64,000 nucleotides of DNA from Emiliania huxleyi CCMP1516 (Eukaryota), in the NCBI RefSeq assembly GCF_000372725.1, contig NW_005201912.1, forward strand, positions 62,001-126,000, written 5' to 3'. The notes below the pieces were generated by a model. It saw nothing but the letters and a program-made list of their open reading frames with translations, was not told the origin of the DNA and did not search any database. A program made the position numbers and the translations under genes. Positions within the stretch are counted from its first letter, which is position 1, and the number at the start of each line of letters is the position of its first letter. This document shows, piece after piece, positions 3,705 to 12,841 of this stretch.

Positions 3705-4100
3705 AGGGCCTCCACAGCTCAGGGGCTCTCACAGCGTCCCATGAAGGTTCACGGGGCCGACTACAGTGTACAACGGGGAGGAGTGCGCCGTACCCCTGGC
3801 TGGGCGCAAAGGGTCTCGCTCTCGGCCTCGTCCCTCACCCCTCAGGCGTCAGGGCTACAGTAAAGCCGCGTGGTACTCTACCCTGTATCCAACGTGCGCA
3901 ACGGCAACTCCGCTCTCCGGGTCCGGCGGCTCGCGTGCAACCCCAACCGGCCCCAACGCGGCCAAGAAAAAAGACATCAACCCTTCGAGAACCTCTCGAG
4001 AACAACTCGGTACCGCTCTCTCGACACTAGTACGGCGCGACAAGAGGACACCCACTTTCACATGACATGGACACATGGAGATGGAGAGATTCATGGTGAG

Positions 4101-7100
4101 TCAGGGAACGGTCTGCGGAGACGCCGACCGCTCAGAGCCGACGCGGCCGTCGCCGTCCAAGTCGATCCCCGTCAGGTTTTCGGTCAGGTTGAGCGCGTCG
4201 CTGAGTAGGCCGCCCCTCCTTGGGCCACACAACGCGTCGATCTGGCCGAGCACCAGCCGCAGCGAGACCTCCGCGTGCGGGCCACCATGCAGCGGAGTCG
4301 CGATCGGGCGGTAGATGCCGGCGTCTCGCAGCGCAGCTGGCGTCGCCGCGATGATGTCGTCGAAAGTGGCGACGCCCACGTCGCCGTCGCGCCGCTCGTG
4401 CACCAGCACGAGCGGCCGGCCGCCCTCCAGCGCCTCGCGCACCTGCCCACGGCACAACGGCGTGAAGAGACGCCGTTCCCCTGGCGACCCCTGGTGTGCC
4501 TCTGTGCACCTCGCAGCCGAGCGCCTCCGCCTGGGCTCCCGGAGCAAAGGTGGAGCTGTTCAGGTAGAGCAAGAAAGCGCACGTGGAGCGCGCCTGCGCG
4601 GGGTCGTGTGCGCTGCTGCTCGAATCTCGGCTGCAATCTCAATATCGGTTGAACCCCGTCGGACATCTCGACCGAATCTCGACCAATCTCGTCTGAATCT
4701 CGGCTCCCGGGTGCGAGAGCCTGCGCGGGGTCGTCCGTGCTGCGCAGCCGCCCGTCGCTCGCCTGCTCACAGATGGAGGTGTGGAGAGACGCGGTTCACA
4801 CCCACAGCGATCCTCGAGGGTCGCGCCGGCTCGCCTCGCCGATGCTCTCTGCCACCTCAGCCGCGCCGGCGTTGCTGGCGGAGTAGTACACGTGAAACTC
4901 CTTCCGGGTGGCGAGCGGCGGCGGCGGCGAGCGGAGGAGGTCGCCCGGCAGGAAGATGGGCTGGTCTGCGCCGGCCGCCTTCCACGCGCGAAGCAGCTCG
5001 ACGATCAGCAGCCTCATCGAGCACATCTGGAAGGGGCGCAGCCGGTGCCACGTCACCAGCGGCGCCGCGAAGACATACTCGCGCAGCTCATCGGGGCACT
5101 CGGCGCGGTGGACCTGTTCACAGCTGGAGGTGTGAAGAGGCGCTGTTCACAGCTCGTCGGAGCACTCTCCACGGTGGGACGTCGAGCGGCACTCCGCCGT
5201 GCGACGGGTCCGTCTCCAGCAGCAGAATCAGCGGCTTCTTCCGCTCAACCTATCCACAAACCCTCTGTTCTCGGCGCTCCGCGCTCTTCTCAGCGCGAGC
5301 GGCCTCTCTGCCGAACCGCGGCGCGCAGCTCGCGCAAGCAGTTGCGGGAGCGCATGTAGTCGGAGGCGGGTGCACCTGTTCACAGCTAGAGGTGTGAAGA
5401 GACGCTGTTCACGGGAGGGAGCGCATGTAGTCGGAGGCGGGTGCGCCGTCGGCGACGGCGGTCGAGCCCGTCAGCAGCACGATCACGGCCTCCGAGTTGC
5501 CCACGTGCTCCTCCAGCCGCGCGGTGTCGTCCAAGTTGTCCACGTCCAAGAAGGGCGAGATGTTTTGTACGTAACTTGGGGACGCGGCGAGCACGTGTCA
5601 GGAGGACGTGTCTGCGGCCGTGTCAGCGGCCGGCGGTCGTGCCGAGGAGCGGCGGCGGTGCGGGCGTAGAGGCAGGGGTGCGGGCAGAGTGGAGGCGGCG
5701 GTGTTGACGGGCGTGCGGATGTGGAGACAGTGGTGGGGGAGGGCGGAGGAGGCGGTGGGTCGCACCGCTGCAGCTGCCCCTTGAGCGCCTTTGCCTGGTC
5801 CTGCCCGCTCGACCACACGTGGGAGAGGAAGACGTGGTACCTGTGCACCTGTTCACAGCTAGAGGAGTGAAGAGACGCTGTTCACGGGAGAGGGAGACGT
5901 GGTACCTGTGCACCGCGGTCAGTCTGTGACGCGCTGGGGCGTGGCCGAGCGAGAGGCAGCTGGTGAGCACCGCCCATCCGGCAGCCCCATAGCAGAGATG
6001 ACCCGCGCCTACACCCGGGTGATCGGGGGTAGATCTCGGGTGATCTGGGGTAGATCTCGGGTGATCTGGCAGTCGTCCGAAATGTCGGACCCCCCCATCA
6101 CGGCAGGGGCGCCGCGCCTACACGCGAGGGCACAGGCCGAGATCATATCTCCCCCACATCTCCCTCATATCTCGTCCTACACGCGAGGAGGCACAGGCCG
6201 AGATCCGCACGAGAGGCCGCCGAGAGGTCTAGCCAGCCGTCGCGGGGCGCCGCACCCTCGTGTTTCTAGGACGAGATATGAGGGAGATATGGAGGAGATA
6301 TGCTCTCGGTCTCAGCCATCGCGGGGCCGCACCTCGTGTGCCTTTGCCAGCTCCCAAGGCGGCGTGCCCCGCTTGGAGCGAGACATGAGCGCGAGGGTGA
6401 CGGAGCGGTGCAGCGACCCCTTCCTACAGCCTCTTCCCATCCCGGCTGATCTCGGCTGGTCCCTAACGGCGGGGCGGCGCAGCACCCTCTCCTCGGCCCA
6501 GCCGGCGGCTCCCAGCGTGCAAAGTCGCGCTCCGCGTCCCTGCAGCCGAGCGGTGCAGTCACGAGGCCGTCAGGGCTCGGAGGAGGCTCGGAGGGCAGCT
6601 CGAGCAGAGTCTGGGGGGGGGGGGCCGATTGCAGGCAAGTGCCGCTGCAGGCCTGATAATGCCCTTGAGATGCCTCCGCCGCCGCTGCAGCCGGAGGTAA
6701 CAGAGTCCGCCGCAGAGGCAGAGCGCAATGAGCCCCGACGCGAGCGCCGCGATGAGTGTAACCACCCCCCTGTTCACGCCTCCAGCCGTGAAGAGACGCC
6801 GAGTACCGCCGCGCGCAAGCAAGGGGGCAGCCCCGCACCGGTTTGAACTGGTTGGACTGGTCGCGTCCTGGCACAGGGCGCCGCTAAACCCCGGAAGGCA
6901 GTCGCAACCGCCGTCGAAGCGGCATTTGCCGTTGCCCGAGCAGTTCCCCTCGTTCAGGCAGTAGCGCAGCTTCCACGGCGGCGTTGGGAAGGAGACGTTC
7001 TCTCTCTCCTTTGCGTCGAAGACAACCTAGAGGAAAACGAGGCGTCAACGAGGGGGTGGTATGTCGGGCGATGGGCGGTGCTACAACACCTCGTAGTCAG

Positions 7101-9067
7101 CCTGCCCGGCCGCCGCCGCGCCGGGCGGGTACTGCACGACAGGGAAGTCCATCCCCTCCATCTGCCCGTCGGCGTTGAAGGAGATGTTGCTGGTGAAGAA
7201 CTCGACGAGCGACGTGCTGCGGAGCGCGCTCGCCACGGCGGCCGTCTCGAGCGAGCCCGCCCGCTCGATGGCGTCGCCCAAGGTGCAGAGCGCCTATCAT
7301 TGACGTGTCGTTGTCATCCTCACCACAATGCCGTTGTTGCTCGATGGCGTCGCCCAGCGTGCGGAGCGCCGCGAAGGTCCCCGCCCCGTCAGAGTCGACC
7401 TTGGCCGGGTACACTGTGCGGCCGCCGAACGCCTTCAAGTACTCCTCCTCGTATTTCGCGCTGTCCCAACCGGAGAAATTGCCAATGTCGCTCGGCATCG
7501 ACGCGACCCACGGCACCGCCTGCAGAGCCGGGGAGCGAGGGCTAGTGGGCTCCACGCGCCGGTGAGAGCAGTGTGAGCGGTGTGCGTGTGCGTGTGCGTG
7601 GTGTGCGTGTGCGAGAGAGAGAGAGGCTGCCTCGAGTGCGTACTCGCCCTGCCACCAGCCGCCCCTCATCTTGCGGACGTATTCGTCGTTGAGGATCGTG
7701 TTTGTCAGGAAAGTGGCGAGCGGCGAGTAGGCCTCCTCCTCCTCCTCCAGGCCGAGTCGCTCCAGCTCCTCCACCTACAGCCTCGACGCATCTCGCGTGA
7801 TCTCGCGCAATCTCCGAGGCCGAGCCGCCCCTCCTCCTCCTCCACCGCGACGATGCCGCCGGCCTCGTACGAGCAGACGAGGACGACGGTGGCGCGCTCG
7901 TCCCGCAGATGCGCCAGCGCCCTCCGCATCTCCTGCCTGTACGTCGATGTGTTGACGCTGCTCCACTTTGGAACCGTCGCGTTCGCTACGATGCCGGAGC
8001 CGGCCGCGTCCGCAGGAGCCGTCAGGATCCGCGCCTTGGCGTCCTCCCACTCTTCTTCGCTGCCGCAGACCCCCCGAAAGGCAGTGTCGTCCTCCTCGAC
8101 GTACCTGCGGGACACACGTCGCGGAAAGTTTCATGGAAAGGGCCGCGAGGCGTCGCCGCCTCCCTTCTCTGCGAACCCGACTCGGAGGGCGCCCAAGCAG
8201 GTCTCGGAAGGTTCGCCGGCGCGGCGCACGCACTCCTTCTGGCAGTCGCACTCCCCGCCAGCATCGCAGCCAGTGTCGCAGTCCTCGGCAGCCTTCAGCA
8301 GCGCCTCGAACTCGCGCCTGTACGACGATACCTCGGCTGTATCTCGGCTGCATCTCGGCTGCGTCCCGGCTGCGTCTCTGGCCAGAGCAACGCCTCATAC
8401 TGCTGCGGGGCAGCATCCCAAACACGCGCAGCCCGAGGCCATTCTCTTGCGCCAGCGCGGCGGCCGAAGAGTAGACGGCGGGATCAGATGACGCTGGAGC
8501 GATCATCAGCTTGCTGTCCAGCACCGCCTGCTTGCTCGCGTAGGTGGTCAGCCCCGAGCCATACGGGCCGAGCAGGAAGTCTGCCGACGCGAAACCGCCC
8601 GACTCCGGGTGCACGAGGCGCGAGGTGGCGTTGGCGACCTGCAGCTGGCTACTGCTGTCTCCGAGGAAGACGCAATGTACGCCGTAGACGTGCGTCGCGT
8701 TGACTTTGATCCCGCCGCGGGGCACCAGCATCCGCGAGAAGAGGTCGCAGCTCCTCTGCATCTTAAGCGAGCTCGTATAGAACTGGTCTTCGGGCTGAAG
8801 CGACGCTGGCGCGCCGATGGTGATTACGCCCCTCGTCCTCTCGTTCTTGCACAGCTGATCGATGTCGGTCTCGAAGGTCAGATGAGGCGTGCCCGCTGGC
8901 AGTGACGGCACCGCTGTTGTGACATTCGTCCAGCAATAGCTTGGGTCGCACTGATCGTCAGAGCGGCCGCGTGTGTTTTCCGTCACCACGACGAGCGGCA
9001 CGTCGTACTTCTCCACGCACTCCGTGATTGTTGCCGCCGCTGCCGCTGTCAGGATCGGCAGCGCCAT
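4101..9067 (-). CDS. Multi-exon receptor-like protein: periplasmic-binding type 1 (Venus flytrap) ectodomain, EGF-like domain, TM helix, TIR domain, second TIR-like domain
   Basis: FLLGPYGSGLTTYA...MIAPASSDPAVY...VFGMLP and LGDAIERAGSLETAAVASAL...ISFNADGQ (Liv/ANF-type PBP1). CSGNGKCRFDGGCDCLPGFSGALC (EGF). VVTLIAALASGLIALCLCGGLCYL-RLQRRRR (TM). RYHVFLSHVWSSGQDQAKALK...FLDVDNLDD...VIVLLT...YMRSRNCLRELRAAV (TIR). FHVYYS...FLLYLNSSTF...EVREAL...LVLVHE (TIR-like). Confidence 0.75.
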
Positions 9068-9170
9068 CGGCGCTGGGTTGTAGCGGACTTGCCTGGGTTG
9101 TAGCGGACTTGCCTGCAGCTCAAAGCACACCGTCCGGCGTCCGCCGCATTTTGGAGTGGCAAAAGAATTT

Positions 9171-9374: not shown

Positions 9375-11141
9375 TCACCAAATGGCGAACCGCGGCGGCT
9401 TCCTCCTTGTGTGGCCGCGGCGGTCCGGGAGCACGCCTCTGGCGAGCGGGTGGGCCTCGGCCGACCTCCTCAGCCCCGCCATCTCGCCGTCGCACGCCGC
9501 GCTCTCGCTAGGCAGGTGCGGCCGTACCCTCGAGAGGTAGTGGAGGTTGTAGCCCAGCCTCGGGCTCGCTTGCCCCTTTCGGTGCTCCTCCGAGTCCCAG
9601 AGCCGCCCGTTCCACGCCTTGGCGCCCGCCACGGTGCCAAAGTAGTGGAAGACCCAGTGCGCCGGCTGCTTGCGGCGCGGGCCGTTGCCGGGCAGCTGCG
9701 AGGCGTCGGGGTTGAAGTAGGCGCCAAAGTCGTGGCGGAGGAACATCATGTACCAGAAGAAGCCCTGATCCTCGGCGGCGGCGACGTACCGCCACCAGTT
9801 GTTGGTCATGGCGCCGGTGGTGTTGATGTGGGTGAACCAGAAGTAGGCCTCGTTGACCCGCGGCCGCAAGGTCGTCGCCCCGCCGGCCGCGGGCGAGACG
9901 TAGCGCTGCTTCAGGTAGCGCGGCGCCTCGAGCAGGGCGCGCGGCGGCCCGACGAGCCCCCACCCGTGCGATACGTTGAGCGGGCAGCTGGCGAGCACGC
10001 GCAGCCCCTCGCGGTAGAGGCGCAGCGAGGGGAGCAGCAGCATGAGCCCCGTGTTGACGGGCGAGGAGCCGTCCGAGGCGCCGATGAACTTGAGCCCCGC
10101 CCGGGGCGCCCTGGCGCCGTCAATGTGGTAAACCTGCGGCGGCAGCGCGCCGCGCCGGGTCGCGGGCGACCCGAACTGCAGCACGAAGGGGAGCATCGCC
10201 CGCCAGCGGGTGCGCAGCTCCACCTCGCAAATCTCGACCGGCATCAGGTCCACGTCCTGGTCCACAAAGAGGACCGCGTCGTACTCTGTCATGCCGACAA
10301 ACTGCCACTTGAGCAACACCTCTGGCGGCATCCCCGTCTGATAGCGACGCCTCCGCTGCTGCGCTAGGCAGCTACGCGCGGCCTGCAGCAACCTCTGGTC
10401 GGGCTCGATGACCTGTGCGAAGCTGCAAAAGGCGGCCGGCCGCGGCGGAGGGAGGCTCAGGCCGTCCCTCCCACGGACAGGCAGCCAGAGGATCAGCACC
10501 GACACCACCCACGGGCCCGACAGGGCCTGCTGCAGCCTGCGCGCGCCCTGGCACCAGAGGCGGAAGGCGCAGTGCTCCTGTGGCGCTGGTAGGGATCGTG
10601 GAGACGGGTACGACAGCGTGGCGATTGCGAGGCGCAGCGCCGAGCCATTGGAGGCGCGGCTCGCCTCAGCCGGAGGAGGGGCGCTCCAGCGGCGCGCTGC
10701 GGGAGGCGGAATGCTCTCGCGCACCTGGACCGTCGTCCACTCTGCGCCAACCCGCCGTGGGCCCCACCAGCTGCGGAGGTCGCCCACGTCGCAGTCCGAG
10801 TACCAGGCACAGACGTTGGCTTCCGCCGAGACGCTGATGTATCGGCACCGCGAGCAGGCCTCGCACGCCGCCACACACGCCTCGGTCGCCGACTGCTGCC
10901 GGAGTGCGCGCTGCGTGCATTGGTCGTCGCACCCTCCGTCTTCCAGCACACGGCGACCGGCGCGGTGCATCCTGAGCTTTGACAGCGCAAGATGCCGAGC
11001 CAACCGGGACGCCATCGCACGGGGCTGCTTGGGCAGCGTGAGGATGCCCTCGCTGCGGCTCTCGCACGCACCAAGTGGAGCTGGTGTCTCCGTGACGAGC
11101 GCACAGAAGCCGCGGTGCTGCGTGGCGTTCGGCATGAGCAC
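9375..11141 (-). CDS. GT-A fold glycosyltransferase (GT8/glycogenin-like) with N-terminal Cys-rich PAN/apple-like module; intronless; start uncertain
   Basis: LKWQ..GMTEYDAVLFVDQDVDL (DxD), SPVNTGLMLLLPS, EDQGFFWY, HYFG..KAW; ACVAACEACSRCRYISVS...CAWYSDC. Confidence 0.7.
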   Translation of the reverse strand: MLMPNATQHRGFCALVTETPAPLGACESRSEGILTLPKQPRAMASRLARHLALSKLRMHRAGRRVLEDGGCDDQCTQRALRQQSATEACVAACEACSRCRYISVSAEANVCAWYSDCDVGDLRSWWGPRRVGAEWTTVQVRESIPPPAARRWSAPPPAEASRASNGSALRLAIATLSYPSPRSLPAPQEHCAFRLWCQGARRLQQALSGPWVVSVLILWLPVRGRDGLSLPPPRPAAFCSFAQVIEPDQRLLQAARSCLAQQRRRRYQTGMPPEVLLKWQFVGMTEYDAVLFVDQDVDLMPVEICEVELRTRWRAMLPFVLQFGSPATRRGALPPQVYHIDGARAPRAGLKFIGASDGSSPVNTGLMLLLPSLRLYREGLRVLASCPLNVSHGWGLVGPPRALLEAPRYLKQRYVSPAAGGATTLRPRVNEAYFWFTHINTTGAMTNNWWRYVAAAEDQGFFWYMMFLRHDFGAYFNPDASQLPGNGPRRKQPAHWVFHYFGTVAGAKAWNGRLWDSEEHRKGQASPRLGYNLHYLSRVRPHLPSESAACDGEMAGLRRSAEAHPLARGVLPDRRGHTRRKPPRFAIW

Positions 11142-12841
11142 GCCCAGGGCTGCCAGTCGCCAGCGGTAACCTCAAGGCGGAGGCGCGGCGCGAGGCTAAC
11201 CTCGGAAATGACACAGAAAGCTGTGCTGGCTCCTCCAAGTGCTCCTTCACAGCCATCTTGAGCACTTGAGCACTGGATAGGGTCGATTCCGCATGGTACG
11301 GGACCCCTCGATCGTCTCGCCCACCCTCACTGGAGTGTTCATTGGGGGGGGTCATAACAAACACGGTGCAGGATCGAGGTGCACGCTGCCGAAGCAGTGT
11401 CGTCCCCCCTCTCCCCGGCGGCGATGGCGGTGTGACCGATCGAGCTACAAGAGGAGCTTGTTCAGCAGGATCCGGGATAGTCAGATGCACTACCTCACTG
11501 GGCCTGAGACCACCGTACGACAGCATCCCGTCACCGTCTCGGATTTATGTGGGGTCGAACCACTCCGGGATGGGCAAGCCCATCAAGTCATTTTCGTCAA
11601 AGTAGAGCTCGAGCAAGATGTTCAGCCGCCCGCACGTCGTCCCCCGCACGCTGCCGGATCCAATATTGGTTGGGGACCCGTAGCATCATGCCCTTGGCCC
11701 GCGTGCGAGGCAATAATCCGACGTCCTGCTGGGTGCCGGCCTGAAGCATGTACCGCCATACAGCTGTATACGCGGCCCTGGGATGACACGTCTCATAGCG
11801 CCGAGTGCCGCTGGCGTGCGGCATCGGCGGAGCAACGTGCTGAGCACATCGGGAGAAACCCAGAAAGGCCCGCGCCAGAAGACGAGGCGCGGCCGTCCAA
11901 TGACCATCGCGGCAAAGGGGACTCAAAGGATGCCACTGCTGTCTCCACGCTTGGTGGCCAATCCCAGCAGTGCACCAACCTTCCGCCAGCCGCGAGGCTG
12001 TAAGCGGCCACATTGATCTGGCTGACCACGTGGTGAGCCCCCATCCCTAGCAGGTGAGACTGTTGTCCACGTACTTCAGCCGCCCCACCGCCGCGCGACC
12101 TCCCCGCGGCGATGCCCACCTTGCCCTCGTATTTGTCGAAGAGCAGCAGCGCTGGGGATCTTCTGGTTAATTGTCAAAATTCCTGTCGTGCAGGAGGGGA
12201 GGGGGCTCTGACGGAGTGCGAGGCGGGAGAGGGCAGGGAATGGGCGCGGGGGAGGGGGGGGGGGGGGGGGCTCAGCCGTGCAAAAAGCATCAATTAATAA
12301 TAGTAAGGAAGACATATTGCCAGGCCGTTCATGAATTCCGTCTCGATTTTGGTTTTTTCCCCACAGACCACTCGGGCAACTTTTACGAAAGGCAAAGTTT
12401 TACTTGACCATTCGGGCAGATTCGATTGCATTTTACCGCTCGGGCAAACTCGATGAAACGGGCGGACGGAAAAGCGCGTTTGCGACGGCTCGCCGGAGCT
12501 ATGCATGGAGCGGCCGGTGCGCCGCCGCAGCTCACCGATGGAGCCTGCGTCGCGGCTCAATCCACTGACGCAGCAGCACCGCGACACACTCTCCAAGCAC
12601 GGCCGCTGGCGTTGCGATTGCACAGAGAGCGAGCAATAGGCGCCAAAAGCACAGATCTGTGTGCAGTGGATCTCCATGTCGGTCGCGCCCAGCGAGAGGA
12701 CAACCGCGGGCCACGGATGCTCGCCTGGACGCGAGCCCACCGTGCGAGTTGCGGACCCGGAGGCGGCCGGCCCAGCTCACCCCCAGAGAGGCATGTCCAG
12801 GGTCAGGCATAAAAAAGGGGGGGGTGTTTTCCGTCCGTCCA

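What the first reader, a model, noticed from the sequence alone, without database searches (positions are those of the whole stretch)
4101..9067. Venus-flytrap + EGF + TM + TIR(-TIR) receptor: a Toll-like architecture with a small-molecule-binding ectodomain
The inferred exons join a bacterial-type branched-chain amino-acid-binding (PBP1) fold and an EGF domain to one TM helix, a TIR domain (FLSH box; conserved Glu in NCLRELRAA) and a second TIR-like domain. PBP1 ectodomains normally pair with class C GPCRs, iGluRs or guanylyl cyclases. TIRs normally pair with LRR/Ig sensors. This suggests metabolite-triggered TIR (possibly NADase) signalling in an alga.
Basis: partly seen in the sequence, partly recalled or inferred. 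Interest (0 to 1): 0.8.

Follow-up and report, generated by a model that had tools for sequence, protein, structure and literature searches.

The report
Algal flytrap-sensor receptor with twin TIRs
This spliced algal gene encodes a membrane receptor with a bacterial-type "Venus flytrap" domain, likely outside the cell, and two TIR-type domains, likely inside; it would turn sensing of a small molecule into NAD-based signalling, and the same layout is already in print for a sister gene.

Summary
Confirmed as one gene: 19 exons, 1043 aa, no internal stop; 15 of 18 introns appear as joints in contigs of probable RNA runs, including every joint from EGF through the helix into the TIR. Parts: LIV-type flytrap (PBP1), EGF, one helix, a SARM1-like TIR (Z 17.9; Glu768, invariant in 34 of 34) and a second, degenerate TIR-like copy. 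The layout is not new: Shaler et al. 2025 (PMC12489294) described PBP1+EGF+TM+TIR for a paralog (38% identical), induced early in virus infection. What I did not find in print: the second TIR; that this flytrap also sits on class C GPCR 7TMs (14 of 50 long homologs), PARP (2) and two unnamed domains (12); and that the window's TIR is sister to that of a receptor with an unrelated taurine-type sensor. Ligand, NAD cleavage and role are untested. The scan held no look-alike by sequence; it noted analogous bacterial TIR receptors. Verdict: new member of a published but uncharacterised kind; interest 0.55.

The parts
4101..9067 (-). Whole gene, 19 coding exons: 9067-8394, 8317-8177, 8104-7846, 7774-7631, 7519-7370, 7293-7090, 7026-6839, 6769-6653, 6539-6492, 6423-6333, 6008-5971, 5840-5766, 5574-5447, 5375-5317, 5249-5181, 5113-4835, 4762-4721, 4593-4510, 4442-4101; 1043 aa
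   Evidence: Model; joints; contigs extend to about 9095-9138 upstream and 3853-4033 downstream
9026..9067 (-). Likely signal peptide (aa 1-14), weak
   Evidence: Hydropathy 1.33 over aa 1-19; no signal-peptide predictor available; homologs P0062, P0063 start with clearer hydrophobic stretches; inference
8834..9025 (-). Cys-containing N-terminal extension (aa 15-78), no family match
   Evidence: Shared with P0003, P0062, P0059; no Pfam match
6970..8833 (-). Venus flytrap / type I periplasmic-binding domain (aa 79-543), LIV-binding-protein-like; putative pocket residues Ser171, Ser194, Tyr351; Ser449 where most relatives have Tyr
   Evidence: Peripla_BP_6 above cut-off on P0003; profile of 34 homologs hits 8wch at E 5.6e-25, and all 21 PDB hits are prokaryote-type binding proteins; conservation; coordinates
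6868..6963 (-). EGF-like domain (aa 546-577, six Cys)
   Evidence: EGF_Teneurin E 0.0012, EGF_2 E 0.0018, below cut-off; above cut-off in several homologs
6694..6768 (-). Single transmembrane helix (aa 588-612), followed by a run of Arg/Lys
   Evidence: Only hydropathy peak above 1.8; basic run read from the sequence
4985..5975 (-). TIR1 (aa 684-838), SARM1-like fold
   Evidence: AF2 model of P0013 (mean pLDDT 84); VIA Z 17.9, rmsd 1.8 A, 128 residues to SARM1 TIR; Foldseek E 1.9e-6
5329..5331 (-). Codon of Glu768, putative catalytic residue
   Evidence: Glu in 34 of 34 aligned homologs; aligns with the residue numbered E836 in the published paralog
4230..4903 (-). TIR2 (aa 866-1001): diverged copy of TIR1 lacking its FLSH and LDVD motifs; equivalent Glu930 only partly conserved
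   Evidence: hhalign 97.3% to TIR1, shuffled controls at most 4.9 bits; same strand-helix order at pLDDT 87-97 over its core; Glu in 20 of 34
4137..4163 (-). DxDxDG motif in the tail (aa 1024-1032), possible calcium-binding loop
   Evidence: Read from the sequence; also in P0003 and P0016; the calcium-binding reading is recalled, not tested

Best explanation
The gene encodes a single-pass receptor of a haptophyte alga (likely Gephyrocapsa/Emiliania huxleyi or a close relative) whose flytrap domain likely binds an amino acid or similar small molecule outside the cell and would switch on NAD+ cleavage by its first TIR domain inside. Shown: one spliced gene, the domain order, the TIR fold, Glu768, homology of the second domain to the first. 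Inferred: N-terminus outside; ligand closes the two lobes; the EGF stalk and helix pass this on as a change in a receptor dimer or cluster; TIR1 domains assemble and make a cADPR-type messenger rather than draining NAD+; TIR2 is a non-catalytic partner that scaffolds or restrains TIR1, as RRS1 does for RPS4.
For: Gene and domains. TIR1 matches enzymatic TIRs best and keeps Glu (34 of 34), Ser-His-x-Trp (33 of 34) and the Asp-x-Asp motif (33 and 31 of 34). Pocket: the Ser matching the binding Ser of LIV-type proteins is in 93 of 97 homologs, a lobe-II Tyr in 85 of 111, and the window has Ser where a solved amino-acid-binding protein has Thr. The same flytrap sits on class C GPCR 7TMs in 14 of 50 long homologs, so it is a receptor module. 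The window's TIR1 is sister (100/96) to that of P0016, which has an unrelated taurine-type binding domain (TIGR01729 E 6.8e-25): small-solute sensors were put on this TIR at least twice. Precedents: Venus kinase receptors, flytrap + one helix + enzyme, dimeric, activated by arginine (PMC2680970, passages); protist TIRs make cADPR and mostly do not deplete NAD+ (10.64898/2026.04.20.719644, section 8); RPS4/RRS1 pair a catalytic with a non-catalytic TIR (PMC13732033, abstract).
Against: No ligand, activity or localisation data. The signal peptide is weak and untested. Pocket mapping rests on profile alignments, not a structure (the only full-length model failed, pLDDT 36). The window has Ser449 where 87 of 107 relatives have Tyr, so its pocket may differ or be inactive. 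A conserved Glu does not prove catalysis, and the 34 aligned proteins were chosen by likeness to the query. TIR2 keeps the equivalent Glu in 20 of 34, this gene included, so it may not be dead. This gene's TIR is not among the 7 rows of its type in the published table of virus-responsive TIR genes, so nothing ties it to immunity. The species is inferred from named paralogs only.
Confidence: 0.45

Rival explanations
1. The TIR is an enzyme, but the flytrap does not sense a free amino acid: it is an orphan co-receptor or binds a peptide, glycan or virus surface, working with one of its near-identical paralogs.
For: Ser449 in place of the family's Tyr; paralogs share almost identical stretches of flytrap and TIR, which would allow mixed dimers; two relatives rise at the first time point of virus infection (log2FC 3.4 and 1.95).
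Against: The lobe-I Ser pair and lobe-II Tyr are kept; the TIR's sister receptor has a taurine-type small-solute domain.
Confidence: 0.25
2. The twin TIRs are a scaffold that recruits cytosolic TIR proteins, as in animal Toll signalling, and are not active enzymes.
For: Tandem arrangement with a degenerate second copy; the alga has soluble TIR proteins (PMC12489294 section 20); IL-1 receptor-type TIRs also score Z about 15.
Against: Invariant Glu; SARM1 structures fill the top 17 structural rows.
Confidence: 0.15
3. The receptor is a death switch: ligand-triggered TIR assembly drains NAD+ and kills the cell, for instance on sensing lysis products in a bloom.
For: Closest fold is SARM1, an NAD+-depleting enzyme; a cryptophyte TIR depleted NAD+ in E. 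coli.
Against: Most protist and animal TIRs tested did not deplete NAD+; spliced contigs are present in all 8 runs laid; the cassette occurs on dozens of receptors with varied ectodomains, more like general signalling.
Confidence: 0.13
4. Two neighbouring genes or a decaying shuffled copy, not a working receptor.
For: No single contig spans the gene; full-length transcript proteins are mosaics of paralogs.
Against: Unbroken chain of joints from exon 1 to exon 16, open frame, GC3 0.87; the same layout in proteins only 38-45% identical (P0017, P0061, P0062).
Confidence: 0.02

Closest known systems
G. huxleyi cogent1101_i1 (= EMIHUDRAFT_460580; Shaler et al. 2025, PMC12489294)
   Same: PBP1 + EGF + one TM + TIR with conserved Glu (its E836 = Glu768 here); proposed there as a receptor making signalling molecules; same TIR clade (99/94)
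   Different: A paralog, 35-38% identical. The text and table seen name one TIR only, no pocket analysis and no wider family; that gene is virus-induced, this one is not in the table
Venus kinase receptors (PMC2680970)
   Same: Flytrap, one helix, cytosolic enzyme; conserved pocket Ser
   Different: Output is a tyrosine kinase and the flytrap is GABA-B-like; here the flytrap is nearer prokaryotic LIV-type proteins, there is an EGF stalk, and the output is a TIR pair
Algal class C GPCRs with PBP1 ectodomain (diatoms; PMC3727952)
   Same: Homologous flytrap: 14 of 50 long homologs of this ectodomain carry 7tm_3
   Different: One helix, not seven; TIR output, no G-protein-coupling domain
SARM1 and plant TIR NADases; RPS4/RRS1 pair
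   Same: TIR fold (Z 14-18), catalytic Glu position; catalytic plus degenerate TIR recalls RPS4/RRS1
   Different: Those are soluble, switched by ARM/SAM or NB-LRR domains; here both TIRs are in one chain on a membrane receptor; activity not shown
Toll-like and IL-1 receptors
   Same: Ectodomain, one helix, cytosolic TIR
   Different: No LRR or Ig domain; two TIRs; no adaptor identified

Membership tests
cogent1101-type PBP1-EGF-TM-TIR receptors of G. huxleyi | PBP1, EGF, one TM, TIR with conserved Glu, in that order in one ORF | tested here: met
   full-length BLAST to P0017 38%, E 5e-169
cogent1101-type PBP1-EGF-TM-TIR receptors of G. huxleyi | Early induction by virus infection | tested here: inconclusive
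   Its TIR is not among the 7 GQDQ-type rows of Table S9; the sequence file of the supplement was too large to read
Enzymatic TIR domains (SARM1, plant TNL, ThsB) | TIR fold | tested here: met
   TIR1: Z 17.9, rmsd 1.8 A, 128 residues to SARM1, on a model of the near-identical P0013
Enzymatic TIR domains (SARM1, plant TNL, ThsB) | Catalytic Glu in helix C | tested here: met
   Glu768 in 34 of 34; aligns to the paralog's E836, named as the conserved Glu in the paper. The fold search gave no residue-level pairing
Enzymatic TIR domains (SARM1, plant TNL, ThsB) | Self-association to form the active site | not tested
Enzymatic TIR domains (SARM1, plant TNL, ThsB) | NAD+ cleavage | not testable with these tools
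   Needs an enzyme assay
Enzymatic TIR domains (SARM1, plant TNL, ThsB) | Second domain: TIR fold with intact catalytic motifs | tested here: inconclusive
   Homologous to TIR1, same element order, but fold-search rows covered TIR1 only; FLSH and LDVD motifs absent, Glu 20 of 34
Type I periplasmic-binding / Venus flytrap domains (LIV type) | Profile match over both lobes | tested here: met
   PF13458 above cut-off; 8wch E 5.6e-25 over profile positions 110-463
Type I periplasmic-binding / Venus flytrap domains (LIV type) | Amino-acid-binding residues (lobe-I Ser and Thr/Ser, lobe-II Tyr and acidic residue) | tested here: inconclusive
   Ser171, Ser194, Tyr351 present; no conserved acidic residue at the expected lobe-II strand; Ser449 for Tyr. 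Roles of these positions partly recalled
Type I periplasmic-binding / Venus flytrap domains (LIV type) | Binds a small ligand | not testable with these tools
   Needs a binding screen
Toll-like / IL-1 receptors | LRR or Ig ectodomain | tested here: not met
   No such Pfam match at E up to 1; the ectodomain is accounted for by PBP1 and EGF
Class C GPCRs | Seven-helix 7tm_3 domain | tested here: not met
   One hydrophobic peak, no 7tm_3 match
Venus kinase receptors | Cytosolic tyrosine kinase | tested here: not met
   Cytosolic part is two TIR-type domains; no kinase match

The most novel reading that the evidence does not exclude
The gene is one of a large mix-and-match family of protist receptors in which solute-binding domains (LIV-type flytrap, taurine-type) related to those of class C GPCRs are wired through one helix straight to NAD+-consuming enzymes (a catalytic-plus-regulatory TIR pair, PARP, and two unnamed TIR/HET-like domains): a G-protein-free route by which bloom algae turn dissolved metabolites into ADP-ribose signals.
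Probability: 0.3. Interest if true: 0.82.

Novelty: new member of a known kind. Interest (0 to 1): 0.55.

Why it matters
No small-molecule-gated TIR surface receptor turned up as characterised in the papers searched. If this one works as proposed, it links chemical sensing in a bloom-forming alga to NAD-derived messengers and gives a testable handle on how algae sense grazers, bacteria or virus lysis. The soluble ectodomain and the cytosolic TIR pair can each be assayed alone, and natural sensor swaps on the same TIR supply controls. The basic layout is already published for a paralog, which caps the surprise.

Tried and rejected
No genome is held for this window, so paralogs could not be counted in the genome; tblastn of the model on the window found only this locus. 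No run was on record as RNA; the laid runs are guessed RNA, which their spliced joints support. Pfam on single exons found only weak PBP and EGF hits and no TIR. AF2 of full-length P0003 without an alignment failed (pLDDT 36) and was not used. phmmer of P0003 and the full-length TIR alignment against PDB sequences gave only E above 0.01; P0063 against PDB sequences returned only Cys-rich repeats. The protein atlas and the wide structural search did not complete. No relative of the TIR pair in phage records or viral contigs (one short pattern, weak); BFVD gave only distant TIRs, such as that of Chrysochromulina ericina virus, 15% identical. The search of prokaryote genomes was not run. My idea that the unnamed cytosolic domains (motif A, 8 proteins; motif B, 5 with P0002) are HET/TIR-like was not supported statistically: no HET or TIR Pfam hit, hhalign probability at most 6.8%; it rests on three short motifs seen by eye. 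Variant letters in the contigs mix alleles and paralogs (10 silent, 14 changing among 24 picked) and were not used as a test of selection. Rejected: separate genes; TLR, class C GPCR or VKR membership; a claim of first description.
Full report
Gene. The minus strand from 9067 to 4101 reads as 19 exons and 1043 aa with no internal stop. Fourteen listed runs hold 35-42% of the region's words; I laid 8 of them. Their contigs skip the introns: 15 of 18 introns are listed as joints, among them every one between the EGF exon and TIR1, in 4 of 4 runs. No contig spans the whole gene. Donors are GT (10), GC (7) and GA (1). The upstream ORF at 9375-11171 has its own contigs and is a separate gene. The host is inferred to be Gephyrocapsa (Emiliania) huxleyi or a close relative from named paralogs; no call names it.

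Domains. A complete transcript protein, P0003, stood in for the spliced product; it is 96-100% identical over residues 701-1000 but 49-96% over 1-600, probably an assembly mosaic of paralogs. It matches Peripla_BP_6 above the cut-off and TIR_2 below it. A profile of 34 ectodomain homologs finds 21 PDB sequences at E up to 0.001, all prokaryote-type binding proteins, best 8wch (E 5.6e-25); no animal flytrap is among them. An EGF-like domain, one hydrophobic helix and a basic run follow. Nine N-glycosylation sequons lie before the helix, in line with an outside N-terminus; the signal peptide is weak and untested.

Pocket. In the homolog set the Ser matching the binding Ser of LIV-type proteins is kept in 93 of 97 rows and a lobe-II Tyr in 85 of 111; the window has both (Ser171, Tyr351) and Ser194 where a solved amino-acid-binding protein has Thr. 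It has Ser449 where 87 of 107 have Tyr, and no conserved acidic residue at the expected lobe-II position. The roles of these positions are partly recalled. An amino acid or similar solute is the best guess; which one cannot be told.

TIR pair. An AF2 model of P0013, the cytosolic part of a near-identical paralog, with 34 sequences reached pLDDT 84. TIR1 superposes on SARM1 TIR at Z 17.9, 1.8 A over 128 residues; SARM1-type chains fill ranks 1-17, and plant and IL-1 receptor TIRs follow at Z about 15. Glu768 is invariant in 34 of 34. The second domain is homologous to the first (hhalign 97.3%; a TIR1 profile scores 33 of 33 TIR2 segments, up to 28 bits, against at most 4.9 for shuffles) and has the same strand-helix order, but lacks the FLSH and LDVD motifs and keeps the Glu in 20 of 34. 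The fold searches did not test it on its own. I read it as a regulatory or scaffold copy; this is inference.

Family, seen from the TIR side. 46 proteins share the cytosolic part; of the 45 besides P0003, 39 have both TIRs at E below 1e-4. Their ectodomains vary: beta-helix, ephrin-like repeats, FG-GAP, peroxidase-DOMON, ANF-type flytrap, mostly with several helices (34 of the 45 were scanned with Pfam). In a tree of 45 TIR1 domains (3 short rows left out) five single-pass receptors with solute-binding domains form a group (99/94); the window's sister (100/96) is P0016, whose ectodomain is an unrelated taurine-type binding domain with CUB and EGF.

Family, seen from the flytrap side. 338 clusters at 50% identity match the ectodomain at E up to 0.001. 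Of the best 150 I scanned 50 chosen by length (615 aa or more): 14 carry the class C GPCR 7TM, 2 PARP, 2 TIR_2; my own TIR profile adds P0095 and P0076; 8 and 4 carry two unnamed cytosolic domains, and one a truncated kinase. P0002 shares 516 residues with P0003 but has its own EGF, helix and one of the unnamed domains. On a quick tree of 43 flytraps (7 short rows dropped; four TIR labels rest on truncated starts only) the output labels need 14 changes against a minimum of 6: repeated swapping, with weak deep support. The unnamed domains show three TIR/HET-like motifs by eye but no significant profile match. Most rows carry no species name.

Prior art. Shaler et al. 2025 (PMC12489294; abstract, passages, section 20 whole, Table S9 and searched rows of the spreadsheet; the PDF supplement was searched without hits, the large text file was not readable) describe cogent1101_i1 as leucine-binding-like plus EGF ectodomain, one helix and a TIR with E836, expressed early in infection, and propose a receptor making signalling molecules. 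It is the paralog P0059/P0017. P0016 is their cogent7218_i1, listed without its sensor domain. The window gene is not among the 7 rows of this TIR type. Seven searches showed no paper on the second TIR, the sensor swap or the PARP-coupled forms; the library lacks most subscription papers. Others seen: PMC2680970, PMC3727952, PMC4986451 and 10.64898/2026.10.11.758280 (passages); 10.64898/2026.04.20.719644 (passages, section 8); PMC13732033 (abstract, start of text); 10.1101/2021.10.02.462850 (abstract: TIR self-association forms the NAD+ site).

Mechanism and verdict. Best reading (0.45): solute binding closes the flytrap, rearranges a receptor dimer or cluster, lets TIR1 assemble and cleave NAD+ through Glu768 to a cADPR-type signal, with TIR2 as built-in partner. 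Rivals: non-amino-acid ligand or co-receptor (0.25), scaffold only (0.15), NAD+-draining death switch (0.13), not a working gene (0.02). It works like a Venus kinase receptor with a TIR in place of the kinase; it is not a TLR, class C GPCR or VKR. Score 0.55.

Noticed in passing
window 5849-5885, 5376-5412, 5114-5150, 4763-4799 (minus); weaker traces near 4443-4480 and 6770-6800: A 37-nt element ends several introns and supplies the AG acceptor (4 copies within 9 mismatches in the window, all in this gene); very deep and many-ended in contigs, so multi-copy in the genome.
   Followed up: partly
window introns 7369-7294, 5446-5376, 5180-5114, and 5914-5886 within intron 11: The start of several introns repeats the start of the next exon (27 of 30 and 28 of 30 letters for introns 5 and 13), often followed by the 37-nt element: looks like intron gain by short duplication plus an acceptor-bearing element.
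   Followed up: partly
window 6424-6491 (minus): A GA-AG intron, joint seen in 4 of 4 runs; 7 of 18 donors are GC.
   Followed up: partly
P0067, P0104: Flytrap + EGF + one helix + PARP (with WWE in P0067, WW in P0104): surface receptors with an ADP-ribosyltransferase output.
   Followed up: partly
P0070, P0078, P0080, P0089, P0100, P0111, P0122, P0129; P0103, P0105, P0142, P0166, P0002: Two conserved cytosolic domains with no Pfam match, each ending in an Arg-x-Trp-x-x-x-Glu type motif; possibly divergent TIR/HET enzymes, not shown.
   Followed up: partly
P0016: Taurine-type binding domain + CUB + EGF + one helix + the same TIR pair; the published table lists this gene without its sensor.
   Followed up: partly
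P0044, P0063, P0076: Flytrap + Cys-rich repeats + about seven helices + TIR: GPCR-like layouts ending in a TIR.
   Followed up: partly
window 9375-11171 (minus): Intronless-looking 598-aa ORF, covered by contigs near its 3' end, no Pfam match at E up to 1; a stretch with a DxD motif recalls family 8 glycosyltransferases (recalled, untested).
   Followed up: no
window 4137-4163 (minus): DxDxDG motif in the tail, shared with P0003 and P0016; possible calcium input.
   Followed up: no
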